Part shown: piece by piece, positions 1 to 62,610 of the stretch
Position numbering within the stretch: the stretch's first letter is position 1
How the letters are laid out: every line of letters starts with the position of its first letter
Assembly (NCBI GenBank): GCA_964456845.1
Contig: CAYWCV010000006.1
Span: 4,093 to 68,092, forward strand
Length of the DNA stretch: 64,000 nucleotides
Reading direction: 5' to 3'
DNA from: an uncultured Chitinophagales bacterium
GTDB taxonomy: Bacteria; Bacteroidota; Rhodothermia; Balneolales; CAYWCV01
Notes under the pieces: generated by a model
What the model saw: only the letters and a program-made list of their open reading frames with translations
Databases searched by the model: none
What the model was told of the DNA's origin: nothing
Program-made: the position numbers and the translations under genes

Positions 1-2393
1 ATTTTCTGCTCAACTATCAAATAGCCCGAGGTATCGGTTCAAGTGGCCTATTGGGAGGAACGATGCTGAACATATTCGAAGCCAACCTGGTTGCTTTTGA
101 AATGCGCGAGGGCAAATTGTTCCTCGTACAGAGACCACATCGATACAAAGCAGAAACGGGCTCCCCGCAGGCTGCATCCGTCGATTACAGCTATGGCGAC
201 TCCGTTCTGGAGACCGCTAAAATTGAGGCTTGGTCTGACGACAAATCGATGATTCTGATCAGTGTGTACGATTGGTTTGTCAGCGACCTGTCAAACATCA
301 GCCAGCGTGTACAGAATGCGGCATCACCACGTCCGGGAACTCCAGGACGCGTCACGTTCGACAAGAGCCGGAGCTATATCGAAAGCGCCAAATCTTTCCC
401 ACTGAATACCAACATCCGTGCCAGCCTCACCTTCAGGAATAATGAATCATCGGGACCTCGCACCGTTGCCGACGCACGCTTTATTCCTGTATCCATCTTC
501 TATTCAATGGCTGCTCTGCCAGAAACCCCAATGAAGCCCCGTGAGGGCGATGAGCGCCTCGGCTATTTCATGACGGTTCACAAAGACTTCACGAACGATG
601 ACAAGAGCTTCTTCAAACGCAACATCAACCGCTGGCGCCTGGAATGTGATGGTCCTGCGGGAAGCGACGGACTTTGCACACCGAAGAAGCCCATCACCTA
701 TTACATCGACCATACCGTTCCTGTTGAGTACCGACAACCTATGATGGAAGGCGTTCTCGCTTGGAACGATGCCTACGAGGCGGCCGGGTTCAAGAATGCC
801 GTGAAGGTCGACATGCTGCCCGATGGAGCCGATCCTGAAGACATCCGCTATGCGACGCTTCGTTGGAGCAGCTCCGACCAGTCGGGCTACAGCGCCATCG
901 GTCCGTCGATCGTCGATCCGCGTACCGGCGAAATCCTGGATGCCGACATGCTCTATGAAGCGAATATGATCATCGGCACACGAAATTCGCAACGGCAGCT
1001 GGTTGAACCAAGAAGTGCCATCGACGAAATGTACATGGCAACCGATGAAGAGCTTGAACTGCAGTCGCAGGGTATCAAGACGGGCAGCTTCTATGCCGAA
1101 GTGGGCGCTCAGCAGGATCTGGTGCGCAGTTTCCTGCTGTTCGGGGGTGCCATGCGGGCCGGAGAAGATGTGCCAAAGACCTTCCTCGACTCGTTCATCC
1201 GTTGGGTGACCATGCATGAGGTTGGCCATACCCTAGGCTTGCGTCATAACTTTAAATCGTCGGCCGACACACCGAACAACAGGCTCACGGACACGTCATT
1301 CACAGAGAAAAACGGAGTATTCAGCTCGGTGATGGAGTACCCAGCCGTAAATCTTGGCAAAAACGCCAGCTCCGACGGCCACTATTATAATGTTGGGGTT
1401 GGATCCTACGATCGCTGGGTGATCACCTATGGCTACACGCCCGACGACTCCAAATCTGAAGCTACCGCACGTCTGGCAGCCCAGCCAGGACACGCGTTCT
1501 CTGACGATGCCAGCGGTGCAAGTGCGATCGATCCGCTTGTAAACACCTATGATCTCGGTGGCGACCCGCTTGCTTGGGGCCGCGAACGAGCCGATATGAT
1601 CAACGCAATGATACCGCGCCTGCCCGAAATCGCCCTCGACGACAATTTGCCGTATTACGAGCTTACCGACATGTACCAATCGTTGCTGCAGCAATATTCG
1701 CGGGCTTTGGCACCGACCGTTAAGTACATCGGAGGTCAACATCTGCATCGCGACCGAGTTGGCGATCCAGACGGACGCATGCCATTCGAGCCCATCAGCA
1801 AGGCCAAGCAGCAGGAAGCACTCGACATGATCGTCGACTATGCCTTCGATGCCGATGCCATGAGCCTGCCGCAGGAGGTTTTCCAGCAGTTTGGCGCCAA
1901 CCGGATGAGCCATTGGGGGCTTACCAACACCTACGGCGGCCGAGTCGACTATCCGCTGCATCAAACTTCGTTGGGGATCAAGACATCGCTGCTGAACCAG
2001 CTGCTCAATCCGACCCGCCTGGAGCGGATACGCGACACCGAAGTCAAGTTCGGAGCCGCCAACACGGTGACCATCCCCGAGCTTATGAAATCGGTCACAA
2101 TGGCCATTTGGGAGGAGATTTGGACCAGTCCAGGCAAGAACATCCCTGGTACACGTCGTGATTTACAGCGTGCTTACATAGACGGCATGATATCGCTGGT
2201 AACAAATCCGTCTTCCGACACACCAGCCGATGCCCGATCCGTTGCCCGCATGACCCTGCAAGATTTGCACGACCGCATCGACGGACGCCTTAAGCCGCCG
2301 ACATTTGCGTTCGACGACTACACCAAGGCACATCTGCAGGAGGCCCGCGCTCGCATCAAGAAAGCCTTGGATGCCGGCATGAGCCAGAATTAG
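1..2393 (+). CDS. Zinc metalloprotease, metzincin-type (DUF5117/DUF4953-like), 5' end cut by window edge
   Basis: The reading frame is open from nt 3 with no stop before the listed TTG at 51, so the gene begins upstream of the window. The zinc site HEVGHTLGLRH (HExxHxxGxxH) is encoded at 1215-1247. The stop TAG lies at 2391-2393. Confidence 0.8.
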   Translation, partial: FLLNYQIARGIGSSGLLGGTMLNIFEANLVAFEMREGKLFLVQRPHRYKAETGSPQAASVDYSYGDSVLETAKIEAWSDDKSMILISVYDWFVSDLSNISQRVQNAASPRPGTPGRVTFDKSRSYIESAKSFPLNTNIRASLTFRNNESSGPRTVADARFIPVSIFYSMAALPETPMKPREGDERLGYFMTVHKDFTNDDKSFFKRNINRWRLECDGPAGSDGLCTPKKPITYYIDHTVPVEYRQPMMEGVLAWNDAYEAAGFKNAVKVDMLPDGADPEDIRYATLRWSSSDQSGYSAIGPSIVDPRTGEILDADMLYEANMIIGTRNSQRQLVEPRSAIDEMYMATDEELELQSQGIKTGSFYAEVGAQQDLVRSFLLFGGAMRAGEDVPKTFLDSFIRWVTMHEVGHTLGLRHNFKSSADTPNNRLTDTSFTEKNGVFSSVMEYPAVNLGKNASSDGHYYNVGVGSYDRWVITYGYTPDDSKSEATARLAAQPGHAFSDDASGASAIDPLVNTYDLGGDPLAWGRERADMINAMIPRLPEIALDDNLPYYELTDMYQSLLQQYSRALAPTVKYIGGQHLHRDRVGDPDGRMPFEPISKAKQQEALDMIVDYAFDADAMSLPQEVFQQFGANRMSHWGLTNTYGGRVDYPLHQTSLGIKTSLLNQLLNPTRLERIRDTEVKFGAANTVTIPELMKSVTMAIWEEIWTSPGKNIPGTRRDLQRAYIDGMISLVTNPSSDTPADARSVARMTLQDLHDRIDGRLKPPTFAFDDYTKAHLQEARARIKKALDAGMSQN

Positions 2394-2434
2394 TGACTAG
2401 TGACTAGTGATTAGTGATTAGTAGTTTAGTAGTT
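2391..2434. repeat. Tandem repeat block (TAGTGAC)x2 (TAGTGAT)x2 (TAGTAGTT)x2 starting with the gene's own stop codon
   Basis: Read directly: tagtgac tagtgac tagtgat tagtgat tagtagtt tagtagtt. Because the period is 7, TAG and TGA fall in all three frames. It contains ACTAGT palindromes. Confidence 0.9.
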
Positions 2435-2439
2435 TAAAA

Positions 2440-15558: not shown

Positions 15559-16096
15559 CCTTATACGTCAATATACGCCTGAACGTTTCGTATCTATCGT
15601 TCGGAACTTTTAATTTGATACGGTGCGAGCGCAGACCGTTCGTTTCGGCTGATGTAAAGAAAAACGTAAACTCCGTGTATCCTTCGCGTGGCAGTTCCAA
15701 GTAGTCGTTCACCCTGCTCCAAGCAATCGTCTGGGACGGATCGTTGATATTCTTGACAATGCCGTTATCGGTGATGTAGCGCTTCGACATCAGATAATAG
15801 GCGACGTACCAGTTGACTCCCATCCATAGGTAAGCCAGTTCGTAGGGCCGGTAGGCCGACTCACCCAGAGCTGTGTGATAAACCGATGTAAAAACCACCA
15901 AGACCAAGAAAACTGCCGGAAAGACGGGGATGCCGTGCAGACCAGGGTCCTGCCACGTGAGGATGCAATTTCTCAAGCGACGCGTATTGAACCATGTCCA
16001 AACGGTCAACACGGTAGACCCGAACACAAAAAGCACCAGCGCTGCAATGAATGCAGTCAAGGCCATGTTGGTGATATGTGGGGTCAATTCAAACAT
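15500..16096 (-). CDS. Hypothetical membrane protein (3 TM segments plus a soluble C-terminal domain)
   Basis: Taking the start at ATG 16094-16096 (MFELTPH) gives an ATGTTTGA overlap of 8 nt with the upstream gene's stop at 16089-16091. I recognise no family motif. Confidence 0.55.
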   Translation of the reverse strand: MFELTPHITNMALTAFIAALVLFVFGSTVLTVWTWFNTRRLRNCILTWQDPGLHGIPVFPAVFLVLVVFTSVYHTALGESAYRPYELAYLWMGVNWYVAYYLMSKRYITDNGIVKNINDPSQTIAWSRVNDYLELPREGYTEFTFFFTSAETNGLRSHRIKLKVPNDRYETFRRILTYKVDRHLSQAWSETSDIERSY

Positions 16097-18209
16097 TTTC
16101 AGCTTTGTACCATCTTGATATAAACGTCTCAAACATGAGCAGGATTATACCGAACAGCAAAAAAAGATGCCATATTTCTCTGCCCATTCCCGCTGTTTCA
16201 AGAAATTCGCTGTAATTCGGGTTCGATTGCGCATCGAGACGAAGCGTTTCGGAGAGCTCAAGTTCATCAGCGAAAAATGTGCTGAGTCGCGCATCCTCAA
16301 TAGTTGCGAGATTCGACTCTTCTACAGGTAGATTAACGGATAGTACTGTAAAATCGGAACCTGACTCAACGCGCAATATGCCCGGGGTCCACTCCTGACC
16401 GGCATACCGTAGGTTGACCCCACTTCGAGTTTGACGAGCTTCAGGCTTATACGTAACTCCATTCAGCAATGCGGACACATCGCGCGACGACAACCTCTCG
16501 GTAATGTCAAGGCCTTGACCCAATACTACGCCCTGTTCTTGGCGCACATCCCTGGCAGCGGCATACAGTACCATTCGGTAGAACAGCGGAGCAAAGAGTG
16601 GCCTGGCCGGCAAGTTGCTCCACCCGGGGTCGGCGCCGAAAGCCGATATCAGCACGACCCCTGCCCCATAAGGCTGTTCGACTACGAGAGGCTCCGAGAG
16701 ATTGCTTTCAAACAACACACGGGAACGGTCGGAGGTTGTAGTGTTAACTAACCAGTAGTAGTAAAAATCAGGAAGCTCGATGCGAATGTCCTCATTTTCA
16801 CGCAATTCAAAAAGATCTTCAAGCACGGGATGGTCCCTGCTTAGACGTCCCAGTTTAGCTATCGACTGGAATGAGGCATATTCACCACGAAATCCAGAAA
16901 ATTCGGGTGCCCCAAAGCGTTGGAGCAGTCGATTGTATGCCGTCTGATTGCCCAGCTCGTTTGGGAGAATAATCAGGCTTTGACCGTCTTGGACAAACGA
17001 AAGAAGTTCGGCTGAGAAAGCCTCAGGCAATTCACGGAGTCCGTCTAAAATGACGGCTTGGAATCGGTTCAGGTCGGGCATGTTGCCGGGCTGAGTCTCG
17101 ACCACTTCGATGCGCCCGCTTGTTTCCTGTGCAGCTCGGAGAACGGGCAGCAGGTAGGAATTGAGCTCCGCGGGGCGCTGCGTCGCCTCCCTGACGTATA
17201 ACACCGGCATGGAGGCCGGTATCGATATGCTGAAGTACCGCTGGTCGTCAGCACCGAATGCATCCCCTTCCATATAGACACGGCCCGTGATATAGCCTGC
17301 CTGCTGCGGCCTGACTTCGAACAAATACGTGCGCACCTCTCCAGGATTGAGCGACACGGTGTATTGTCCTCCTTGCTGACCATCCGATTCAAGCGTCAGA
17401 AACAGGTTCGATACCGGATCGCTGTTGAAATTGGTGATTTCGGCCTCAACAATGACAGGGCGGCCCGTACCCAGTATGCGGTTCAATATTCTCAGACCGG
17501 TGATACCCACGTTGTTAGATGGACGCTCGCCCACACGGACGAACTGTACAGGCAGGGGTTCCTGACCCTGACGGACCGAAGGGCTACGGTTGGTCAAGGG
17601 CTCAAGCTGACTGCCTTGGGCATCACCGATCACAAAAAGTACAGGGAGGTGTTCTCCCGGCTCGACGGATGCATCGGCTAGAGCTGTCAGACGCTCCGCT
17701 ATGTAATTGCCCTTAGCCACAGGCTCCAAACTCTCCACGGCCTCGCGGAACCGGCCGGCGTCAAGTCTGCCCTGGACCGTCCATTCACCGTTTGTCGGTG
17801 CCAAGATAAATTGATCGCGTGGTCCGGCATTGCCCACCAGTGCTATCAGGAAATCCTTCGTCTGCTGCATGTAAGGACCGTTCACATCAACTTGAGCCAT
17901 ACTCAAGCTATTGTCGACCAAAATCAGATACAGCCTGGGTTGACCTGCCGAAGCCATCATCCCGACACCGGATGGCATAAATGGGCGCATCAAGCCCAGT
18001 ACTAAAAGTGTGATCGCCAGAAGGCGAATTGCGAGCAAAATCCACTTTTTGATGCGGATGCGTCTTATTGTGCTCTGCTGCAGCACCTTGAAGAAGGCGA
18101 TCGTCGAAAATTTGAGCGTCTGCGGCTTGCGCAGATTCAGCAAATGGATGATGATCGGCACTGCCAGAGCTGCAAAAGCAGCAAAAAACCAAGGACTTAA
18201 AAATTGCAT
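16089..18209 (-). CDS. BatA-N (aerotolerance regulator N-terminal, double-TM anchor) domain protein
   Basis: The N-terminus MQFLSPWFFAAFAALAVPIIIHLLNLRKP...KKWILLAIRLLAITLLVLGLMRP is the characteristic two-TM anchor. The 706-aa length is typical of this family. Confidence 0.8.
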   Translation of the reverse strand: MQFLSPWFFAAFAALAVPIIIHLLNLRKPQTLKFSTIAFFKVLQQSTIRRIRIKKWILLAIRLLAITLLVLGLMRPFMPSGVGMMASAGQPRLYLILVDNSLSMAQVDVNGPYMQQTKDFLIALVGNAGPRDQFILAPTNGEWTVQGRLDAGRFREAVESLEPVAKGNYIAERLTALADASVEPGEHLPVLFVIGDAQGSQLEPLTNRSPSVRQGQEPLPVQFVRVGERPSNNVGITGLRILNRILGTGRPVIVEAEITNFNSDPVSNLFLTLESDGQQGGQYTVSLNPGEVRTYLFEVRPQQAGYITGRVYMEGDAFGADDQRYFSISIPASMPVLYVREATQRPAELNSYLLPVLRAAQETSGRIEVVETQPGNMPDLNRFQAVILDGLRELPEAFSAELLSFVQDGQSLIILPNELGNQTAYNRLLQRFGAPEFSGFRGEYASFQSIAKLGRLSRDHPVLEDLFELRENEDIRIELPDFYYYWLVNTTTSDRSRVLFESNLSEPLVVEQPYGAGVVLISAFGADPGWSNLPARPLFAPLFYRMVLYAAARDVRQEQGVVLGQGLDITERLSSRDVSALLNGVTYKPEARQTRSGVNLRYAGQEWTPGILRVESGSDFTVLSVNLPVEESNLATIEDARLSTFFADELELSETLRLDAQSNPNYSEFLETAGMGREIWHLFLLFGIILLMFETFISRWYKAENV

Positions 18210-18231
18210 CTCGTAAGATAATCAAGAACGG

Positions 18232-18313
18232 GAACAAGAACAGAGCAAGAGCAAGAGCAAGAACAAGAACAAGTGCTAGTGCTAGTGCTAGTGCTAGTGC
18301 TAGATATTGCTAG
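18232..18313. repeat. Hexamer microsatellite block: about 7 units of (AGCAAG/AACAAG), then (TGCTAG)x5
   Basis: Read directly at 18232-18273 (gaacaa gaacag agcaag agcaag agcaag aacaag aacaag) and 18274-18303 (tgctag x5), plus atattgctag. It begins 23 nt upstream of the BatA-like start codon. Confidence 0.9.
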
Positions 18314-18470
18314 TCTGGTCTGTTTAAATGATAATGAATCAAAACGGATTGATTTGAGTATGCTATTTTAATGACTTTTTGAAGCCATAGCCATCTCAAG
18401 CCGAGTACTCATAGCGCCATGATAGCAAAATGTTGCGCTGCATCATTTCGTTTCAACTTACATCTCCAAC

Positions 18471-20690
18471 ATGACATCAACCCGAAGCACCAATTACCCC
18501 ATTCCCTTGCACTCGCACTCGCACTTATTCTTGCTCTTGCTCTTGCTCTTGCTCTTGTTCTCGTTGTCATCCTGCTCTCCGAAATCAGATCCCGACTGGT
18601 CCCGGTTTCTTCCCGATCAGACAGTCTTGGTCTATTGGGGTGATGGAGATCGTGACGGCAGGCTGCGTACTGACATTGGCGAGCTTATTGGCAAGCCGAT
18701 CTTGTCGCGCCTTGTATTGGGTGATACCGTCGCTTCGGAACCGGCGGCAACGGCATTGGTTCCCGAAAGCGTCGACCAACTTTCCGCTCTGTGGATTTTC
18801 GATGCATCTGAAGATCTGAAAACAGTGCTCACTGGCGGCGGATGGGTGAACAAGGGTGGTTACACCATCACCGAAGGTCGCGTTGACTTCTATGACAAAA
18901 GTGGTGTTTCGGTCGCTATGGGCTCCACTTCGACATGGACCTTGGTATCAGAGAGCAGTCGGACGATTGAACAGGCGTTAAGGGCAGCCGATGGTTCCAT
19001 ATCACGTTTGGTGATCGCCAACACGCCGGGTTTCCATCTGAATGTGGGCGAATTCGGCAGGCTGTTCGCTCCATTGGCAAATTCGTCCGTCCGATCTGAA
19101 CTGGCGAAGGCGTTGCGTGGCCTGGGCACCGTATTGATCGAACCTCCAAGTAGTGGCGACCAGGCAGAATGGCTCATTGATATTCCTGTGACGGCGGAGG
19201 TCTCGAATCTGGTGAAGTATCTTTCGGCTCGTTCGTCTGTTGCCGCATCTTCTTTTGAGGTTCCTGCCGGTGTGGCATTGAGCTTGGTGTGGAACGACCC
19301 CTACGGCATTGACGTGTTCGACGAAATCCGTTCATCGAACAGTAGCGGTACTGCTGTGCGATCGGCCATTGGTGCGATGTCGCCGCATTTGTCACCGGAG
19401 GTTGCGATGTACGTAACGGAGGCGCCATCGGCCGCGGTGGCTTATGTCAGAAGGGCCAACATGGCATCAATTGGGGATGTTTTTGCCGATTTATATCAAC
19501 AAGGCATGCTCGATGGCGAGGGTGAGGTGTTCGTTGGGCGAGATCCGGCGCTTGCGGTGGCCATATGCTCCGGTCTTTGCGACTTGAGCCGGTATTCTAT
19601 TGGGCTGCGTGAGGACGGCATCGTGATATCGTCGAGCGAAACCTTGGTGCGCAGGTTGATGGTAAACGACGGTGCTGGATCTAGCCTTGAGTCTTTGGTT
19701 CCTGCGGGTGGGGTTGGCGCCGGCGGGATGGAAGGCTCCTACGGGTGGGCTGACGTATCTTCACTGATCGCGGCAGCCAGAGCGAACGGGTGGATGGTGT
19801 CAGACAGGCCGGTTCCAGGCATCCTGCGAAGATTTGCATCTGTGGCGTATTCGGCGCGGGCGGGCGACGGAAGGCTCACCCTGAGGCTGAGGTTGGATTC
19901 AGGTTCGACTGGCGGTTCACGTACCGACCTGATTTTGGCATGGCAGTATCCGCTTCGGGATGATGCCCTCATATCGGAGCCGGTAGCAACGGTACTCAAC
20001 GGCAGGCCATTGATCGTGGCCACCACGAGCTCTGGGCGTGTCTTGGCGCTAGGTGCAGAGGGCACCCTGCAGTTTGAGGTCACGACAGGGACGCAGACAC
20101 CTATGGGAGGGGTTGAGATCTATGATTGGTATGCCAATCGATCGCCCGTCGTCTTGCAGGCTGCTGGGTCAGCAATCTACGCTTGGAGTCCATCAGGTAA
20201 TCTGCTGCCAAGCTTTCCGTTCGTGATCGACTCACCCATAAGCGCCCCGATCACCCTCACCGACATCGATGGGAATGCCGAACCCGAAATCCTCGCGCCC
20301 ACCGAAGACGCACGCCTTCATTTGATCAACCGCGATGGAAGAGGAGTGTCTGGATGGCCGGTGTACACCGACGGCAAAATTGTGAAAAAACCAGTGATCA
20401 CCCAATCCAATGGAGATTGGGCGGTCGAGGTCATTACAGAGTTTGCAACCGAGGTGTACGACAAACTCGGTCAACGAATATCAAGCCGCCCTCATCTCGA
20501 CGACATTTCAGTAGACACAGATTCGTTGGTCGCCCATTCTTCCCCTTCTGGGTTTGATGGAAGTGCACCCATGCTCTATGGTCAATTCCCCATTGTTGCC
20601 GACATCGACGGCGACGGCAGAATGGAGCTCATTGTGGTATTAGACGGCCAGATTCGTTGCTACCGGCTTCCTTCCAATCGGGCTGACTGA
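18471..20690 (+). CDS. Lipoprotein with C-terminal FG-GAP/VCBS-like beta-propeller repeats
   Basis: The signal peptide ...HLFLLLLLLLLLFSLSSC carries lipobox LSSC. FG-GAP-like motifs TDIDGNAEPEILAP and VADIDGDGRMELIVV lie near the C-terminus. Confidence 0.7.
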   Translation: MTSTRSTNYPIPLHSHSHLFLLLLLLLLLFSLSSCSPKSDPDWSRFLPDQTVLVYWGDGDRDGRLRTDIGELIGKPILSRLVLGDTVASEPAATALVPESVDQLSALWIFDASEDLKTVLTGGGWVNKGGYTITEGRVDFYDKSGVSVAMGSTSTWTLVSESSRTIEQALRAADGSISRLVIANTPGFHLNVGEFGRLFAPLANSSVRSELAKALRGLGTVLIEPPSSGDQAEWLIDIPVTAEVSNLVKYLSARSSVAASSFEVPAGVALSLVWNDPYGIDVFDEIRSSNSSGTAVRSAIGAMSPHLSPEVAMYVTEAPSAAVAYVRRANMASIGDVFADLYQQGMLDGEGEVFVGRDPALAVAICSGLCDLSRYSIGLREDGIVISSSETLVRRLMVNDGAGSSLESLVPAGGVGAGGMEGSYGWADVSSLIAAARANGWMVSDRPVPGILRRFASVAYSARAGDGRLTLRLRLDSGSTGGSRTDLILAWQYPLRDDALISEPVATVLNGRPLIVATTSSGRVLALGAEGTLQFEVTTGTQTPMGGVEIYDWYANRSPVVLQAAGSAIYAWSPSGNLLPSFPFVIDSPISAPITLTDIDGNAEPEILAPTEDARLHLINRDGRGVSGWPVYTDGKIVKKPVITQSNGDWAVEVITEFATEVYDKLGQRISSRPHLDDISVDTDSLVAHSSPSGFDGSAPMLYGQFPIVADIDGDGRMELIVVLDGQIRCYRLPSNRAD
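18509..18564. repeat. Intragenic hexamer repeat (GCACTC)x3 (CTTGCT)x4-6, an inverted copy of block 18232-18313
   Basis: Aligned by hand, the reverse complement of 18232-18303 (..gcactagcactagca cttgtt cttgtt cttgct cttgct cttgct..) matches gcactcgcactcgca cttatt cttgct cttgct cttgct cttgct cttgtt. The block encodes HSHSH-LFLLLLLLLLLF. Confidence 0.85.
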
Positions 20691-20692
20691 TG

Positions 20693-21589
20693 TTACTTTA
20701 GCAGATCGCGAAGGGCATCTTCTATAGTGGTGAACTTCCATGCAAACCCTATTGATTGCAATTTGGCGGGAATCATGCGCTGGCTCGCCGTTACTACAAC
20801 AGCAGACTCACCAAGAGCTAGACTAAGTGCAAATCCCGGCACTTTGAACAGAGTTGGCCGTGATAGAACCTTGCCCAAGGCAGCCGCAAACTGCGACATG
20901 GTCACTATGTTTGGCGCCGAAGCATTGACGGCACCACTCAGGCTCTCGTTTTCGACGCCTTCGATAATGATTCTCACCATATCGTCGAGGTGGATCCAGG
21001 GGAAATATTGATTACCAGTTCCCAGCGGTCCACCGAGACCCAATTTGAACGGCAGAAGCATCTTCTCGAGAGCTCCCCCATCGGGATGCAGCACAACCCC
21101 AATGCGTGGTATGACCACTCGTACCCCCTTGGGTGCCGCATTCGCATGCGACTCCCAATAACGGCAGACGTCGGCGAGAAAATCGGAGCCCGCCGGGGAA
21201 TCCTCGGTGAGCACTTCGTCGCCCGAATCGCCATAGTAACCCACGGCCGACGCCGAGACAAAAACTGATGGACGCTGATCGGTTGGCACTGCGTTCATGG
21301 CCTTCACGATTGCAGATGTGGTATCAACCCTGCTGGAAACGATCTTTTTCTTCAACGACTCCGTCCACCTGCGCCCTCCGAGCGGCTCGCCAGCAAGGTT
21401 GACGACACCTTTGGCACCTAAAATAGCGCCGTTGATGTCAGCCCATGTTGCGTACGACACCGAATCGCCAAAGGGTGTAGATCGGGACGTGTCCCTGGTT
21501 AAAATCACGACCTCGTACCCTTTAGATACCAAGGCCTTGGTGAGTGCCGTGCCAATGAATCCCGTCCCTCCACTGATGACAACTTTCAT
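20693..21589 (-). CDS. TIGR01777-family NAD-dependent epimerase-like oxidoreductase (YfcH type)
   Basis: It has an N-terminal VISGGTGFIGTAL motif and a DUF1731-like C-terminal tail (PAKLQSIGFAWKF). The length is 298 aa. Confidence 0.8.
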   Translation of the reverse strand: MKVVISGGTGFIGTALTKALVSKGYEVVILTRDTSRSTPFGDSVSYATWADINGAILGAKGVVNLAGEPLGGRRWTESLKKKIVSSRVDTTSAIVKAMNAVPTDQRPSVFVSASAVGYYGDSGDEVLTEDSPAGSDFLADVCRYWESHANAAPKGVRVVIPRIGVVLHPDGGALEKMLLPFKLGLGGPLGTGNQYFPWIHLDDMVRIIIEGVENESLSGAVNASAPNIVTMSQFAAALGKVLSRPTLFKVPGFALSLALGESAVVVTASQRMIPAKLQSIGFAWKFTTIEDALRDLLK

Positions 21590-21609
21590 AAGGACTTCCT
21601 GCTTGTTAG

Positions 21610-22632
21610 TTAGTTTCTCTGCTGAACACCCAACCCCGGCAATTCATTCAAACGAACCCTTCCGTCAGCCCCAACGACTAGCCCGGTAAAAGGATCCTCC
21701 GAAATGAGGACGTGACTGTCGAGGTCGCAATAGTCGGCCCATAGCGCAACAATGGCGGCGGCTGTGTTGGCGACGGACGATTCGAGCATGCATCCGACCA
21801 TCACTTTCATTCCGAACTGCCGTGCCTTCCATAAATGGTGGAGAGCTGGAACCATGCCACCGGTCTTCATCAGTTTAAGATTGATGCCATGATAGCAACG
21901 AGCGATTTGAGCCATGTCTTCTGCACCGGTGAACCCCTCGTCTGCGATGATGGGCACGGGTGAGCCCAACTTCAACATCGCCAGTTCATCGGTCATGTGT
22001 GCCGGCATGGGCTGTTCGACCAGTTTCACGTTCATCCGGTGCATGAACCTCGCAAGATCGATGGCTTCTTCGGGGTCGGTCCATCCCTCGTTGGCGTCGA
22101 TCCACACTTCCTTCCGGGTCAGGCTTCGGATGAGGCGAATGATGTCGCGGTCGTCGTTTGTTCCAAGCTTCACCTTGAGTACGGGGTAAGGCTCCGCTTC
22201 GGCCACTTTTTGGCGAATGATATCCTCAGTGTCAATCCCGATGGTGAACGATGTAGTGGGCCCGACAGTGTCCGGTGCGTTCCATATGCGATGCAAGGGC
22301 AAGCCGAGCGATTTACCCATCAGGTCGGCGTATGCCATTTCAATACCTGCACGTACCGACCCCTCGTGCGGATAAATCTCGTTCAAGTAGGCGTGAAGTT
22401 CGACCATGTCGAGTGGATTCTTAATGCGTGAGGCATCGAAACGCTTCACGGCTTTCCGCACGGAGTCGACCGTCTCGTCGTAACGCTTGTTGGGGGCGAA
22501 TTCCCCGTAGCCAACCAAGTCGTTCCTCTCAACCTTAAGCAACAGATTCGATGCGACCGTACGGGAGCCACGGGTGATGGTAAAGGCGTGCTTAAGGGGC
22601 AGATTCAGTTCGCTGAGGGTCAGTTTATCCAT
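21610..22632 (-). CDS. Dipeptide epimerase (L-Ala-D/L-Glu epimerase type, enolase superfamily)
   Basis: The enolase-superfamily catalytic and metal motifs are present: VLKVKLG, WIDANEGW, VEQP, IIADEG and KLMKTGG. Confidence 0.8.
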   Translation of the reverse strand: MDKLTLSELNLPLKHAFTITRGSRTVASNLLLKVERNDLVGYGEFAPNKRYDETVDSVRKAVKRFDASRIKNPLDMVELHAYLNEIYPHEGSVRAGIEMAYADLMGKSLGLPLHRIWNAPDTVGPTTSFTIGIDTEDIIRQKVAEAEPYPVLKVKLGTNDDRDIIRLIRSLTRKEVWIDANEGWTDPEEAIDLARFMHRMNVKLVEQPMPAHMTDELAMLKLGSPVPIIADEGFTGAEDMAQIARCYHGINLKLMKTGGMVPALHHLWKARQFGMKVMVGCMLESSVANTAAAIVALWADYCDLDSHVLISEDPFTGLVVGADGRVRLNELPGLGVQQRN

Positions 22633-22633
22633 T

Positions 22634-23455
22634 TCAGAGGTCGATATACTTGAAGTATTTTAAAAGCTCGAGCCATACCCAGGCCACCGGTGCAGAAAGC
22701 ATCATCGCATCGAAACGGTCGAGCACGCCTCCGTGACCGGGCAGCAGGCTTCCAGAATCTTTAAGGTTGGCCTTGCGTTTGATGCGGCTTTCGGCAAGGT
22801 CTCCGATCGGACCAAATATCGACACGAGAAGGATGAGTGGCCATACAAGGCTCATGTCAAGTTCTTTCCCGCCCGGTGTGAGCCACATGGCAAGTAAATA
22901 GCCAAGAGCGGCACCAAAAAAGCCGCTGATGAACCCTTCCCATGTCTTTTTGGGGCTGATCTTTGGTGCAAGCTGGTGTTTACCGAACATTTTGCCACCG
23001 AAATAGGCAAAACTGTCATTGCCCCACACCATCAGGATCACCATGAGCAAAAGAAAATATCCCTGCGAGTCGGTGCCGCTGTTCCGTAGCAACAGCATCG
23101 TATTCATCATAAGTGGGATGTAGGATCCGATGAAGATACTGCTCACGATGCGGTTCATTCGTTCGTCGCTGCTCCGCAGCGCACCACGCAAGACAAGGAT
23201 GAACAACATCACTAAAAGTGTGGGCAGGAAAAGCGGGTTGTAGGGCTGCGTCACGATTACTGCGCCCATCAGGAGACTCCATGGAAGGCTTACTTCGGCC
23301 CCCATCAGCTTGAAGATGTTCGACAGTTCCCACTGCATGAGCCAGACGATTACGAGTATGGCCACGAGGAAATACCAACCACCCAACCACACGACGACTA
23401 AGAACGCCGGTGCGGCGATAAGCCCAAAGACAATCCTCTTTAGAAACTCATTCAA
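22634..23455 (-). CDS. cdsA: Phosphatidate cytidylyltransferase
   Basis: The signature SRIKRKANLKDSGSLLPGHGGVLDRFD is present in a multi-TM protein of 273 aa. Confidence 0.9.
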   Translation of the reverse strand: MNEFLKRIVFGLIAAPAFLVVVWLGGWYFLVAILVIVWLMQWELSNIFKLMGAEVSLPWSLLMGAVIVTQPYNPLFLPTLLVMLFILVLRGALRSSDERMNRIVSSIFIGSYIPLMMNTMLLLRNSGTDSQGYFLLLMVILMVWGNDSFAYFGGKMFGKHQLAPKISPKKTWEGFISGFFGAALGYLLAMWLTPGGKELDMSLVWPLILLVSIFGPIGDLAESRIKRKANLKDSGSLLPGHGGVLDRFDAMMLSAPVAWVWLELLKYFKYIDL

Positions 23456-27203: not shown

Positions 27204-27231
27204 CATTGGACATTGGACATTGGACATTGCT
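27204..27231. repeat. Heptamer tandem repeat (CATTGGA)x3 plus CATTGCT
   Basis: Read directly in the accA/arsR divergent intergenic region. Confidence 0.85.
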
Positions 27232-29801: not shown

Positions 29802-29808
29802 TTAGTTC

Positions 29809-29886
29809 AGTAGTAGAGTAGTAAATACGAATACTACTCTACTACTATACCACTTTACCACTCTACCACTTTACTACTTTACTACT
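29809..29886. repeat. Perfect 15-bp hairpin followed by an octamer array (nTACYACT) of about 7 units
   Basis: The stem agtagtagagtagta (29809-29823) pairs with tactactctactact (29832-29846) around an 8-nt loop. The 3' arm continues as ataccact ttaccact ctaccact ttactact ttactact up to 5 nt before ATG 29892. Confidence 0.9.
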
Positions 29887-29891
29887 CTTCT

Positions 29892-30449
29892 ATGATTGAC
29901 TGGTTGTTTCAACCCTGGCCATGGTACGTCTCTGGCATTATCATTGGTGTCATGGTCCCGCTTTTGCTATGGATCGGTAACAAATCGCTGGGCATCTCGA
30001 GCTCCATGCGACACATGTGCGCGATTGCCGCACCGGCTAAGATCCCATTTTTCAGCTACGACTGGCGGCAGCACATCTGGAATCTGGTTTTTGTCGGCGG
30101 TTTATTTATCGGCGGCATCATCGGCGGTTACTTTCTCGGTGGCAACGGCGACGTGGCCATCAGCGAGGCTACAAAGGCCGACCTGCAGCAGTTGGGAATC
30201 ACCGACTTCTCTGGAATGATGCCAAAAGACCTGTTCGGAGTAGACGCCATATTCAGTTCGAAGGGATTGATTTTCCTCGTACTGGGTGGCTTCTTAGTCG
30301 GATTTGGAACACGCTACGCCGGCGGGTGCACCTCGGGGCACACCATCTTTGGTCTTGCTACGCTGCAATGGCCATCGCTGGTCGCCTCTATTAGCTTCTT
30401 CGTCGGAGGACTGTTGGTCACCCACTTAGTTCTGCCGTTTCTGTTGTAA
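29892..30449 (+). CDS. YeeE/YedE-family sulfur-compound transporter, N-terminal half protein
   Basis: The motif GGCTSGH is present in a 185-aa multi-TM protein. Confidence 0.8.
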
Positions 30450-62465: not shown

Positions 62466-62467
62466 AC

Positions 62468-62610
62468 AATCATTAGCAAGCATTAGCAATGACTAGCAAT
62501 CATTAGCAGTGACTAGCAGTGACTAGCAGTTACCATCGGTGGTCATCGCTGGCATTTGGTAATAACTGTTAGTTATTGTTAGTCATTGCTAATGATTGCT
62601 AATGATTGCC
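62468..62610. repeat. Roughly 145-nt imperfect palindrome built from 10-nt tandem repeats (ARTSAYTAGC x6 and inverted GYTARTSATT x5)
   Basis: The left arm (62468-62534) reads aatcattagc aagcattagc aatgactagc aatcattagc agtgactagc agtgactagc agttacc. The right arm (62558-62610) reads ggtaataact gttagttatt gttagtcatt gctaatgatt gctaatgatt gcc, which is the reverse complement of the left arm with a few mismatches. Confidence 0.9.

What the first reader, a model, noticed from the sequence alone, without database searches (positions are those of the whole stretch)
18232..18564. Mirror-image hexamer microsatellite blocks bracket a divergent promoter, and the coding arm is a stop-free copy that forms a poly-Leu signal peptide
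The block 18232-18313 contains about 7 AGCAAG/AACAAG units followed by (TGCTAG)x5. It lies 23 nt upstream of the BatA-like gene. Its reverse complement aligns by hand with 18509-18564, at roughly 85 percent identity over about 55 nt. That second block lies inside the divergent lipoprotein gene.

The arms differ in a systematic way. GCACTA in the non-coding arm is GCACTC in the coding arm. This removes what would otherwise be in-frame TAG stops (ttg cac tAg versus ttg cac tCg). The coding arm translates to LHSHSH-LFLLLLLLLLLF-SLSSC, so the hydrophobic core of a lipoprotein signal peptide is encoded by a microsatellite whose 6-nt period keeps slippage in frame.

The two arms enclose about 195 bp that holds the start codon (18471) and presumably both divergent promoters. 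This geometry resembles Bacteroidetes invertible promoters, although the arms here are low-complexity sequence and no recombinase gene lies nearby. Three non-exclusive readings are possible:
- A slippage-driven contingency locus that tunes signal-peptide length.
- A long-range hairpin or cruciform that couples the two divergent genes.
- An inverton.
Basis: partly seen in the sequence, partly recalled or inferred. Interest (0 to 1): 0.7.

Follow-up and report, generated by a model that had tools for sequence, protein, structure and literature searches.

The report
Paired inverted hexamer repeats, concerted evolution
Two fast-mutating six-base repeat arrays sit in opposite orientation on either side of a divergent promoter region; one encodes the leucine-rich core of a lipoprotein export signal, and the two keep exchanging sequence, but nothing indicates a flip-switch.

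Summary
Hexamer arrays at 18223-18313 and 18506-18565 form an inverted repeat (50 nt, 90% complementary, 214 nt apart; z about 30 against shuffles).

The signal-peptide reading is supported. All 14 orthologous loci keep an open frame, a (NTC-TTG)n Leu/Phe run, a lipobox Cys and S/T-x-K-x-D-P-D/E-W.

Both arms are hypermutable. Two strains 98.3% identical over 5.3 kb differ by indels only in the arms (+24 nt non-coding, +12 nt coding).

The arms share lineage-private variant units: GCACTN (window), GCCATT (L001), TTGCAC (L013). This indicates sequence exchange between arms. In-frame TAGs are absent from the coding arm.

The non-coding arm is patchy. It is strong in five lineages and weak or absent in the others, so it is not essential.

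The inverton reading is not supported:
- The spacer has the same orientation in all 14 loci.
- No recombinase was found among the ORFs scanned.
- The arm sequence is not conserved.
- Inversion would detach the start codon.

A second inverted tandem-array pair (62467-62609) behaves the same way.

Best reading: slippage plus template switching or gene conversion between inverted microsatellites, tolerated because the signal-peptide core accepts in-frame length change. A selected coupling function is not excluded.

The parts
16089..18209 (-). BatA-like / VWA-domain membrane protein gene (706 aa), first gene of a minus-strand cluster
   Evidence: PF07584 BatA E = 1.9e-19 over residues 1-76, PF13519 VWA_2, TIGR02226. 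It is the divergent neighbour in 12 of the 14 loci; in L009 the contig ends 155 nt upstream of the lipoprotein gene and in L013 the neighbouring minus-strand gene carries no Pfam annotation.
18210..18231 (-). Conserved proximal leader of the BatA-like gene (sense strand: TTCTTGATTATCTTnCGnn-ATG). It ends in the CAAGAA seed from which the non-coding array extends.
   Evidence: AAGATAATCAAGAA is conserved next to the BatA start in most loci, with small substitutions in L003-L006 (L012 and L013).
18223..18273 (.). Non-coding arm, outer part: AGCAAG/AACAAG hexamers, 8.7 copies
   Evidence: TRF. Complementary to 18526-18565.
18272..18313 (.). Non-coding arm, inner part: (TGCTAG) x5.3 plus one degenerate unit. 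Carries TAG on both strands.
   Evidence: TRF, 100% matches. Aligns to (GCACTC) x2.8 in the coding arm with A>C or A>T at every TAG position.
18314..18505 (.). Spacer holding conserved promoter-like blocks: TGAATCA at 18335-18341, AGTATGCTATTTT at 18357-18369 (an extended -10-like TGnTAtTTT on the + strand), AATGTTGCG at 18429-18437 and TTTCGTTTC at 18446-18454. It also holds the lipoprotein start codon 18471 and codons 1-12.
   Evidence: Alignment of 10 loci, invariant columns. Same orientation in all loci. The generic sigma-70 scan gave nothing above chance. Promoter assignment is inference.
18471..20690 (+). Lipoprotein gene (739 aa) of unknown function with weak C-terminal FG-GAP repeats
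   Evidence: ORF. PF13517 E = 7e-6. 13 homologues, 54-100% identity. No relative with a solved structure by sequence.
18506..18565 (+). Coding arm: (GCACTC) x2.8 encodes H-S-H-S-H, and (TCTTGC) x5.5 encodes LFLLLLLLLLLF, the signal-peptide h-region (residues 19-30, 18525-18560)
   Evidence: TRF and translation. The strict CTC/TTG alternation has P about 1e-6 given this window's Leu codon usage. The only other run of four or more Leu in 47 genes uses mixed codons.
18564..18575 (+). Lipobox L-S-S-C (Cys35 codon at 18573-18575)
   Evidence: Matches the [LVI][ASTVI][GAS]C rule (established knowledge). Cys followed by S/T-x-K-x-D-P-D/E-W is conserved in all orthologues.
62467..62609 (+). Second member of the same class: inverted decamer arrays forming a long terminator-like hairpin followed by a T-run
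   Evidence: IR of 47 nt at 85% and 69 nt at 77%. RNA fold -75.5 kcal/mol, z = -9.7. The orthologous site in L015 has different units shared by both arms; L016 lacks the hairpin.

Best explanation
The two blocks are hexanucleotide microsatellites of the same unit, (CTTGYT)n, read on the sense strand of each of two divergent genes. One lies in the 5' leader of the BatA-like gene. The other forms codons 13-31 of the lipoprotein gene, where NTC-TTG repeats spell the Leu/Phe hydrophobic core of a type II (lipoprotein) signal peptide.

Shown:
- Both arrays change length by slipped-strand mispairing in 6-nt steps, far faster than the flanking DNA changes.
- In the coding arm every step stays in frame.

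Inferred from shared private variants:
- Because the arrays are inverted copies about 200-300 bp apart, they exchange sequence. The likely route is intramolecular template switching during replication (quasipalindrome correction) or short-tract gene conversion. As a result they evolve in concert.
- Purifying selection then removes what the coding arm cannot carry, namely in-frame TAG.

Inferred overall: the pair is mainly a self-perpetuating mutational structure. It is tolerated because a signal-peptide core accepts variable Leu/Phe runs and an untranslated leader accepts variable length. The outcome is near-neutral heritable variation in signal-peptide length and BatA leader length, not a switch.
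For: 1. The repeats are real and the inverted match is far above chance.
2. The signal-peptide role is conserved in all orthologues, with no stop and with frame-preserving length differences.
3. Strain pair L002/L014 shows 52 substitutions and 36 gapped positions over 5319 nt. All gaps lie in the two arms: 24 nt and 12 nt.
4. Clusters whose arrays are short or imperfect show no N-terminal length variation among 8, 4 and 2 close variants. This is as expected for slippage.
5. Arms share lineage-private variants:
   - Window: GCACTA/GCACTC units.
   - L001: a 27-nt exact match containing GCCATT, giving 7 private 12-mers.
   - L013: TTGCAC/TTGAAC units, which put N and H inside the hydrophobic core.
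   - L014: a 29-nt exact match, with 49 of 53 positions identical, where its sister strain L002 has only 29 nt.
6. The non-coding arm is dispensable. z is 7-30 in five lineages, 3-4 in four loci and about 0-1 in L004 and L010. In L003/L004 other repeats replace it.
7. A second inverted tandem-array pair (62467-62609) shows the same pattern: arm-shared, species-specific units, and absence in one relative.
8. Template switching between imperfect inverted repeats is an established mechanism that homogenises arms (PMC8604942, PMC7202029, PMC5941160; abstracts listed).
Against: - The coding-arm hexamer pattern and the CAAGAA seed in the BatA leader persist across orthologues down to 54% protein identity. 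That is long for a neutral microsatellite and could reflect selection at the nucleotide level.
- In the one strain pair available, both arms are longer in the same strain. This is also what selection for pairing would produce.
- A spacer of about 200 nt is long for classical quasipalindrome template switching.
- Polar residues (H, N) carried into or next to the hydrophobic core suggest that nucleotide-level forces can override protein optimality. That fits conversion, but it also fits a selected DNA or RNA element.
- No reads, transcripts or mutation rates were available.
Confidence: 0.55

Rival explanations
1. Selected long-range stem. The arms pair in a single transcript (most plausibly a BatA-sense RNA starting inside the lipoprotein gene) or as DNA under divergent-transcription supercoiling. 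This would couple or attenuate expression of the two genes, and arm co-variation would be compensatory evolution.
For: - The arms pair in the minimum-free-energy fold on both strands. The BatA-sense strand is more stable (-152 kcal/mol, z = -9.9) than the + strand (-130 kcal/mol, z = -7.0).
- Arms co-vary in several lineages and co-expand in L014 relative to L002.
- By hand from the alignments, transition mismatches become G-U more often on the BatA-sense strand (9 versus 3).
Against: - The invariant promoter-like blocks lie between the arms, so the two start sites probably place each arm in a different RNA.
- No promoter signal or unusual synonymous conservation was seen by eye downstream of the coding arm.
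- The non-coding arm is weak or absent in L003-L006, L010 and L012.
- The 9:3 wobble count is not significant and is confounded by the Leu-over-Phe codon preference in the coding arm.
- Cruciform extrusion with a 200-bp loop is energetically unlikely (established knowledge).
- No Rfam match was found.
Confidence: 0.13
2. Adaptive contingency locus. Copy number in the coding arm tunes export or lipidation efficiency of the lipoprotein. Copy number in the leader arm tunes BatA-operon expression. Together they give heritable, reversible, graded variation.
For: - Hypervariability is confined to the arrays between close strains.
- The gene product is a lipoprotein, a class often subject to variation.
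- The array has been retained in every orthologue.
- Neisseria opa genes use CTCTT repeats in the leader-peptide region (PMC3960869).
Against: - The 6-nt period cannot switch the frame.
- Hydrophobic cores of 9-18 residues are all within the normal working range (own knowledge).
- Three lineages with decayed arrays keep a fixed length without apparent cost.
- The context is housekeeping genes in an environmental lineage. It is not a surface-variation locus, and no paralogous family was found (13 homologues only).
Confidence: 0.15
3. Inverton, or a recombinational or template-switch inversion switch. The roughly 195-bp spacer flips between the arms, swapping or disconnecting the two promoters.
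For: - The geometry fits: inverted repeats flank a divergent promoter region.
- Sequence exchange between the arms implies that they interact physically.
- Template switching between inverted repeats can invert spacers (PMC8604942 abstract).
Against: - The spacer orientation is identical in all 14 loci, which come from NCBI, JGI, ENA and Logan assemblies.
- Arm sequence and length differ between strains and species, unlike recombinase recognition sites.
- No recombinase was found among the scanned ORFs of 64 kb.
- Start codon 18471 and codons 1-12 lie inside the segment. After inversion the gene body would be preceded by five in-frame TAG codons.
Confidence: 0.05
4. Shared cis-element. Because the repeats are inverted across divergent genes, both mRNAs carry the same CU-rich (CUUGYU)n tract, and both DNA flanks carry the same array. 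A common RNA- or DNA-binding factor could therefore co-regulate the pair.
For: - Both sense strands read (CTTGYT)n.
- The gene pair is syntenic wherever the contig reaches.
- The arms flank the promoter region symmetrically.
Against: - No factor or motif is known.
- Units vary between lineages (GCACTC, GCCATT, ATCTTG).
- A 6-bp period does not match helical phasing.
- The leader arm is absent in several lineages.
- The motif occurs nowhere else in the window or in the other fetched loci.
Confidence: 0.07
5. Static coincidence or artefact. This covers independent convergent microsatellites, an ancient inverted duplication with no continuing exchange, and an assembly artefact.
For: Both sites contain TTCTTG-type seeds that could expand independently.
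Against: - Heterogeneous private variants are shared in register by both arms in at least three lineages.
- Cross-lineage control pairs reach at most 5 private 12-mers, against 6-7 for same-locus pairs.
- The structure recurs in independent assemblies from four sources.
Confidence: 0.03

Closest known systems
Neisseria opa coding repeats: (CTCTT)n in the leader-peptide coding region (PMC3960869)
   Same: A pyrimidine-rich short tandem repeat of almost the same sequence encodes the hydrophobic core of an export signal. It varies in copy number by slipped-strand mispairing.
   Different: The opa unit is 5 nt, so slippage shifts the frame and switches the gene on or off. Here the unit is 6 nt and only the length changes. 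opa has no inverted partner array, whereas this locus has one in the neighbouring gene's leader.
Quasipalindrome-associated template-switch mutagenesis and homogenisation of inverted-repeat arms (PMC7202029, PMC8604942, PMC5941160)
   Same: Imperfect inverted repeats whose arms acquire each other's variants. This explains private variants shared by both arms and the coupled change seen between strains.
   Different: Classical cases involve short arms and short spacers. Here the arms are themselves microsatellites (slippage plus switching), the spacer is about 200 nt and holds two promoters and a start codon, and one arm is under coding constraint. The mechanism is inferred here, not demonstrated.
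Simple-sequence contingency loci of bacterial pathogens (the Haemophilus, Neisseria and Campylobacter type; own knowledge)
   Same: A hypermutable repeat lies inside a gene for an envelope protein and in a 5' leader. Indels are confined to the repeat between close strains.
   Different: No frameshift or promoter-spacing switch is possible from what is seen. The organism is an uncultured environmental Bacteroidota-like lineage. No phenotype has been shown.
Bacteroidetes invertible promoters (invertons; PhaseFinder-type loci; own knowledge)
   Same: Inverted repeats bracket a promoter-containing segment of a few hundred bp.
   Different: Only one orientation was seen in 14 loci. The arms are low-complexity and variable. 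No invertase was found in the scanned ORFs of the window. The start codon lies inside the segment.
Leucine-run length polymorphisms in eukaryotic signal peptides (for example the APOB signal-peptide insertion/deletion, PMC4201729 listed; the rest is own knowledge)
   Same: In-frame repeat-number variation occurs in the hydrophobic core of a signal peptide and is tolerated by the export machinery.
   Different: Those are eukaryotic, mostly trinucleotide-based, and have no inverted partner.

Membership tests
Type II (lipoprotein) signal peptide | N-terminal region, then a hydrophobic core, then a lipobox [LVI][ASTVI][GAS]C | tested here: met
   MTSTR...HSH / LFLLLLLLLLLF / S-L-S-S-C35. The same architecture and a conserved post-Cys motif are present in all orthologues. 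No dedicated predictor was available, and cleavage and lipidation were not tested.
Type II (lipoprotein) signal peptide | The region is translated (start codon upstream of the repeat) | tested here: met
   The frame is open from ATG 18471. The ATG context is conserved in the nearest relatives. All indels are multiples of 3. TAG is avoided in the coding arm only.
Simple-sequence contingency locus | Tandem repeat with an elevated indel rate relative to flanking DNA | tested here: met
   L002 versus L014: all 36 gapped positions in 5319 aligned nt fall in the two arrays. Only one strain pair was available.
Simple-sequence contingency locus | Repeat-number change reversibly switches or modulates expression | not testable with these tools
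   The 6-nt unit excludes frameshift switching (read from the sequence). A graded effect on export or on the BatA leader needs experiments.
Neisseria opa-type coding repeat | Unit length is not a multiple of 3, so slippage changes the frame | tested here: not met
   Period 6 in all arrays. Indels of 12 and 24 nt.
Inverton (invertible promoter) | Inverted repeats flank a promoter-bearing segment | tested here: inconclusive
   The inverted repeats are confirmed and conserved promoter-like blocks lie between them. The promoters themselves are only inferred: the generic sigma-70 scan was at chance level.
Inverton (invertible promoter) | Both orientations of the segment occur | tested here: not met
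   The orientation is the same in 14 of 14 loci from independent assemblies. Assemblies show only the majority state, and raw reads were not available.
Inverton (invertible promoter) | A site-specific recombinase, with conserved recognition sequence in the repeats | tested here: not met
   No integrase, resolvase or transposase domain in the scanned ORFs of the window. Arm sequence differs between strains and species. A distant global invertase cannot be excluded.
Quasipalindrome / inverted-repeat template-switch homogenisation | Arms of an imperfect inverted repeat acquire each other's variants | tested here: met
   Lineage-private units are shared by both arms in the window, L001, L013 and L014. 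Cross-lineage controls are lower. The evidence is indirect and comparative only.
Quasipalindrome / inverted-repeat template-switch homogenisation | Replication-dependent strand switching demonstrated | not testable with these tools
   This needs genetic assays. RecA-dependent gene conversion would leave the same comparative signature.
Structured cis-regulatory RNA | Both arms lie in one transcript, with covariation that preserves pairing | tested here: inconclusive
   The arms fold together in silico and there is no Rfam hit. Transcript boundaries are unknown. The wobble asymmetry of 9:3 is not significant.

The most novel reading that the evidence does not exclude
This clade may carry a previously undescribed class of cis-elements: pairs of inverted tandem-repeat arrays kept complementary by selection. 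Slippage in one arm would be matched in the other, so that stem length acts as a heritable, finely graded regulator. At 18.2-18.6 kb such a stem would couple the BatA-like operon to the divergent lipoprotein gene while one arm also serves as the signal-peptide coding sequence. At 62.5 kb the same principle would build a terminator of adjustable strength.
Probability: 0.15. Interest if true: 0.75.

Novelty: new variant of a known kind. Interest (0 to 1): 0.5.

Why it matters
If the best reading holds, this is a clear natural example of two mutational processes acting on one structure: microsatellite slippage and template switching or conversion between inverted repeats. One arm is held in check by coding constraint, through stop-codon purging and tolerance of Leu/Phe runs.

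It shows how part of a signal peptide can be written and rewritten by a repeat. It also shows how nucleotide-level dynamics can push polar residues (H, N) into or next to a hydrophobic core.

The locus is a caution for inverton-calling pipelines, because low-complexity inverted arrays around divergent promoters mimic invertons.

If instead the arms are selected to pair, it would be a new kind of tunable cis-regulatory element. The finding also points to a lineage-wide tendency to build inverted tandem arrays, which a genome-wide census could test.

Tried and rejected
- **Metagenome scans.** A protein-alignment scan found nothing. A DNA-pattern scan returned only an unrelated chance hit, L011. 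The genome scan gave just two loci. The remaining loci came from exact-protein look-ups, and all 12 of those were used.
- **Rfam.** No family at gathering threshold in the window. In the region, only a meaningless miRNA hit at E = 0.5.
- **Promoters.** The generic sigma-70 and terminator scan was at chance level. By eye I found no canonical Bacteroidetes TAnnTTTG/-33 TTTG motif and no sigma-54 motif in the spacer. The invariant TGnTAtTTT and TGAAAC blocks are suggestive only, so start sites remain unassigned.
- **Strand test by wobble counting.** By hand from the alignments, 9 mismatches favour the BatA-sense strand, 3 favour the + strand and 9 are neutral. This is not significant and is confounded by codon preference.
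- **Private 12-mer test.** It is positive for L001, L013 and the L002/L014 lineage. It is blind to the window's GCACTA/GCACTC units, which have one mismatch per unit, and cross-lineage noise reaches 5. I therefore use it only together with the alignments.
- **Truncated gene calls.** I asked whether the truncated calls (P0009, P0012, P0013; 673-687 aa) reflect stops in the repeat. They do not: the frames are open upstream, and the gene callers chose internal starts.
- **Solved structures.** A sequence search for the lipoprotein found none. I did not pursue structure prediction because it does not bear on the repeats.
- **H-DNA/triplex idea.** Set aside because the units are not pure homopurine/homopyrimidine mirror repeats (read from the sequence).


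Full report
**1. What is in the sequence**

Position 18209 is the first base of the start codon (on the minus strand) of a 706-aa BatA-like/VWA protein. Its support is PF07584 at E = 1.9e-19, VWA_2 and TIGR02226. A 739-aa ORF starts at ATG 18471 on the plus strand.

Between and into these genes, Tandem Repeats Finder reports four period-6 arrays:
- 18223-18273: AGCAAG/AACAAG, 8.7 copies
- 18272-18303: TGCTAG register, 5.3 copies, 100% matches
- 18509-18525: GCACTC, 2.8 copies
- 18529-18561: TCTTGC, 5.5 copies

The first two arrays are the reverse complement of the last two, in mirrored order. The arms 18242-18291 and 18506-18555 are 50 nt long, 90% complementary and 214 nt apart, and the match extends to 73 nt at 75%. 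A gapped alignment of the reverse-complemented upstream region against the coding region scores 41. Shuffles score 7.7 +/- 1.1, and the direct orientation scores 7. The 12-mer CTCTTGCTCTTG (up to 1 mismatch) occurs six times in the window, all at this locus, against 0.25 expected. It occurs nowhere else in the other fetched DNA.

**2. The coding arm is a lipoprotein signal peptide**

The ORF begins MTSTRSTNYPIPLHSHSH-LFLLLLLLLLLF-SLSSC35-SPKSDPDW.

A search of 5.8 billion proteins returned only 13 relatives, at 54-100% identity. Every one with a complete N-terminus has a Leu/Phe-rich run, a lipobox ending in Cys, and then S/T-x-K-x-D-P-D/E-W.

I read 14 orthologous loci at DNA level: the window, L001-L010, L012, L013 and L014. 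In all of them the frame is open through the repeat. The shorter gene calls (673-687 aa) are caller choices of internal starts, not stops in the repeat. The ATG context is conserved in the nearest relatives.

The aligned non-coding units read CTAGCA, which would give in-frame TAG. The coding arm has TCG or TTG at those positions.

The nine-Leu run uses strictly alternating TTG and CTC. This has P about 1e-6 given this window's Leu codon usage. The only other run of four or more Leu in 47 genes uses mixed codons.

**3. Both arms are hypermutable**

L002 and L014 are two strains of one species, 98.3% identical over 5319 nt. They differ by 52 substitutions and 36 gapped positions, and all gaps lie in the two arms:
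- 24 nt (four hexamers) in the non-coding arm
- 12 nt (two hexamers, with three nearby substitutions) in the coding arm

The corresponding proteins differ only there...SRVSYLLLLLLLPLLLLSSC versus ...SRVSFSLLFLLLFLLLPLLLLSSC.

In three other lineages the coding array is short or imperfect. There, 8, 4 and 2 close variants have identical N-terminal lengths. This fits the known dependence of slippage on array length and purity.

Among species, the hydrophobic run ranges from about 9 to 18 residues.

**4. The arms evolve together, but the non-coding arm is dispensable**

Arm strength by lineage:

| Locus | z against shuffles |
|---|---|
| window | 30 |
| L001 | 19 |
| L002 | 9 |
| L013 | 9 |
| L008 | 7 |
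| L003, L005, L006, L012 | 3-4 |
| L004, L010 | 0-1.4 |

In L003 and L004 the BatA-proximal region instead carries its own local hairpin of heptamer repeats.

Where the arms are strong, they share variant units that other lineages lack:
- **Window:** GCACTA/GCACTC.
- **L001:** a 27-nt exact match, TCTTGCTCTTGCTCTTGCCATTGCTCT, containing a rare GCCATT unit; 7 private 12-mers.
- **L013:** TTGCAC and TTGAAC units, which put His and Asn into the hydrophobic core, LFLNLFLHLFLF.
- **L014:** arms with 49 of 53 positions identical and a 29-nt exact match, where the sister strain L002 has only a 29-nt arm match. In this lineage the homology runs to the outer ends: the BatA leader TTCTTG|ATTATC on one side and the lipobox codons CTC TCT TCT TGT on the other.

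As a control, cross-lineage arm pairs give at most 5 private 12-mers, against 6-7 for same-locus pairs. Independent expansion of two microsatellites would not reproduce such heterogeneous patterns. Sequence must therefore pass between the arms.

**5. The spacer and the inverton question**

An alignment of ten spacers shows invariant blocks in the same order and orientation everywhere (window 18335-18369 and 18429-18454):
- TG.A.CA, then 15 nt, then AGTAYG.TA.TT, which includes an extended -10-like TGnTAtTTT on the plus strand
- ATGTTGCC, then 8-9 nt, then TTYGTTTC

The other four loci, read directly, have the same arrangement. No locus shows the inverted state.

No ORF scanned in the 64-kb window has a recombinase or transposase domain.

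The start codon and the first 12 codons lie inside the would-be invertible segment. After inversion, the gene body would be preceded by five in-frame TAG codons (read from the sequence). Arm sequences also differ between strains, which is not how invertase sites behave.

The inverton reading is not supported. However, assemblies show only majority states, so a rare inverted subpopulation cannot be excluded without reads.

**6. Hairpin or cruciform**

If both arms were in one RNA, they would pair. The plus strand folds at -130 kcal/mol (z = -7.0) and the BatA-sense strand at -152 kcal/mol (z = -9.9).

Three observations count against this:
- The conserved promoter-like blocks sit between the arms, so the simplest layout is two back-to-back promoters, with each arm transcribed into a different mRNA as the same CU-rich (CUUGYU)n tract.
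- I saw no sign of a promoter downstream of the coding arm.
- There is no Rfam match.

Counting transition mismatches that would become G-U gives 9 for the BatA-sense strand and 3 for the plus strand (by hand). This is not significant and is confounded by the Leu-over-Phe preference in the coding arm. A cruciform with a 200-bp loop is energetically unfavourable (established knowledge). A selected stem is therefore possible but unsupported.

**7. A second example in the same window**

A scan for inverted repeats within 500 nt finds only two long systems in 64 kb, and both are built of tandem arrays. The second is at 62467-62609.

- It consists of decamer arrays (TAGCARTGAC)n facing their complement across a 30-nt loop.
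- It folds at -75.5 kcal/mol (z = -9.7) and is followed by CCTATTTTTAT.
- It lies between co-directional HAD-hydrolase and YicC-like genes, so it looks like a terminator.

At the orthologous site in L015 (neighbouring protein 89% identical), the loop is conserved. The arrays are longer and use other units (CAATTACTAT / ATAGTAATTG), again shared by both arms. In L016 (81%), only a 3.3-copy direct array remains.

The pattern is the same as at the main locus: inverted tandem arrays, arm-shared private variants, and patchy presence. This argues for a general mutational process in this lineage rather than a device specific to the BatA/lipoprotein pair.

**8. Most likely mechanism**

*Shown:*
- The repeats and their inverted relationship.
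- The signal-peptide role.
- Indels confined to the arrays.
- Private variants shared between arms.
- Dispensability of the leader arm.
- A single spacer orientation in every locus.

*Inferred:*
- Slipped-strand mispairing changes each array in 6-nt steps.
- Intramolecular template switching or short-tract gene conversion copies stretches from one arm to the other. Template switching between imperfect inverted repeats is a known mechanism that homogenises and extends arms (PMC8604942, PMC7202029, PMC5941160).
- Selection removes stop codons from the coding arm.
- The structure persists because a signal-peptide core and an untranslated leader both tolerate length change.

I put this at about 0.55. 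Adaptive tuning (0.15), a selected stem (0.13), a shared binding element (0.07), an inversion switch (0.05) and coincidence or artefact (0.03) are the rivals. The first three are not mutually exclusive with the mutational model.

**9. Comparison with known systems**

- **Neisseria opa.** The nearest functional analogue is the CTCTT coding repeat in the opa leader-peptide region (PMC3960869). It shares the sequence flavour, the place in the protein and the slippage mechanism. But its 5-nt unit gives frameshift switching, and it has no inverted partner.
- **Contingency loci.** The locus meets the hypermutable-repeat criterion. The switching criterion is untested, and a frameshift version of it is excluded.
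- **Invertons.** The locus fails the two testable inverton criteria.
- **Quasipalindrome homogenisation.** The comparative signature fits, with the unusual features that the arms are themselves microsatellites, the spacer is long, and one arm is coding.

I class it as a new variant of known kinds.

**10. Source organism**

The two genome-collection loci are labelled 'uncultured Chitinophagales bacterium' MAGs. A neighbouring HAD hydrolase has its best named relatives in Chitinophaga, at about 44% identity. The family of the lipoprotein is very small, with 13 clusters among 5.8 billion proteins.

**11. Verdict**

The inverton reading is not supported, and the coupling stem is unproven.

The added value from this stage is threefold:
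- strain-level evidence that both arms are the only indel hot spots in 5.3 kb;
- evidence that the arms evolve in concert;
- recognition of a second locus of the same kind.

Interest is moderate (0.5). It would be higher if read-level or transcript data showed selected pairing.

Noticed in passing
window 62467-62609; L015 10720-10935; L016 10691-10724: Inverted decamer arrays form a long terminator-like hairpin (-75.5 kcal/mol, z = -9.7, T-run after) between the HAD-hydrolase and YicC-like genes. The orthologous site in L015 has longer arrays with different units shared by both arms and a conserved loop. L016 has only a short direct array.
   Followed up: partly
window 29803-29892: An octamer array (TACTACTC, 7.6 copies) is preceded by an inverted copy (AGTAGTAGAGTAGTA; 15 nt at 100%, 34 nt at 74%). 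It lies in the 90-nt gap between a rhodanese/metallo-beta-lactamase gene and a sulphur-transport gene.
   Followed up: no
window 2391-2436 and 2436-2471: (TAGTGAC) x4.6 and then (TTAGTAGT) x2.4 start at the stop codon of the Met-zincin-like gene, giving stops in all frames. A separate 17-nt, 94% hairpin with a T-run follows.
   Followed up: no
window 27204-27229: A heptamer array (CATTGGA, 3.7 copies, 100% matches) lies in the divergent intergenic region upstream of the accA-like gene.
   Followed up: no
whole window; arrays listed above: CTAG is strongly under-represented: 57 observed, against 249 expected from base composition and 74 from a Markov estimate. Yet 11 of the 57 lie in the 456 bp of tandem arrays. 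GTGACTAG occurs only in the arrays at 2.4 kb and 62.5 kb, so the TAG-rich arrays share sequence cores.
   Followed up: partly
L003 2765-2862; L004 458-552: In these orthologous loci the BatA-proximal intergenic region carries its own local hairpin built of heptamer-like repeats (GAATCGA GAATCGA GACGCGA ... facing CTCGTGTCTCGATTCTCGATT) in place of the hexamer arm.
   Followed up: no
window 18335-18369 and 18429-18454: Blocks invariant across 10 orthologous spacers: TG.A.CA, then 15 nt, then AGTAYG.TA.TT; and ATGTTGCC, then 8-9 nt, then TTYGTTTC. They do not match the canonical Bacteroidetes -33/-7, sigma-70 or sigma-54 consensus, and no Rfam family matches.
   Followed up: partly
window 16089-23455 and all orthologous loci: Gene order is conserved wherever the contigs reach: HflX-like GTPase, a 198-210-aa protein, the BatA-like gene, then divergently the lipoprotein, then an epimerase/DUF1731 gene, an MR_MLE enolase-family gene and CDP-diglyceride synthase. 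The lipoprotein family is tiny (13 clusters) and has no relative with a solved structure by sequence.
   Followed up: no
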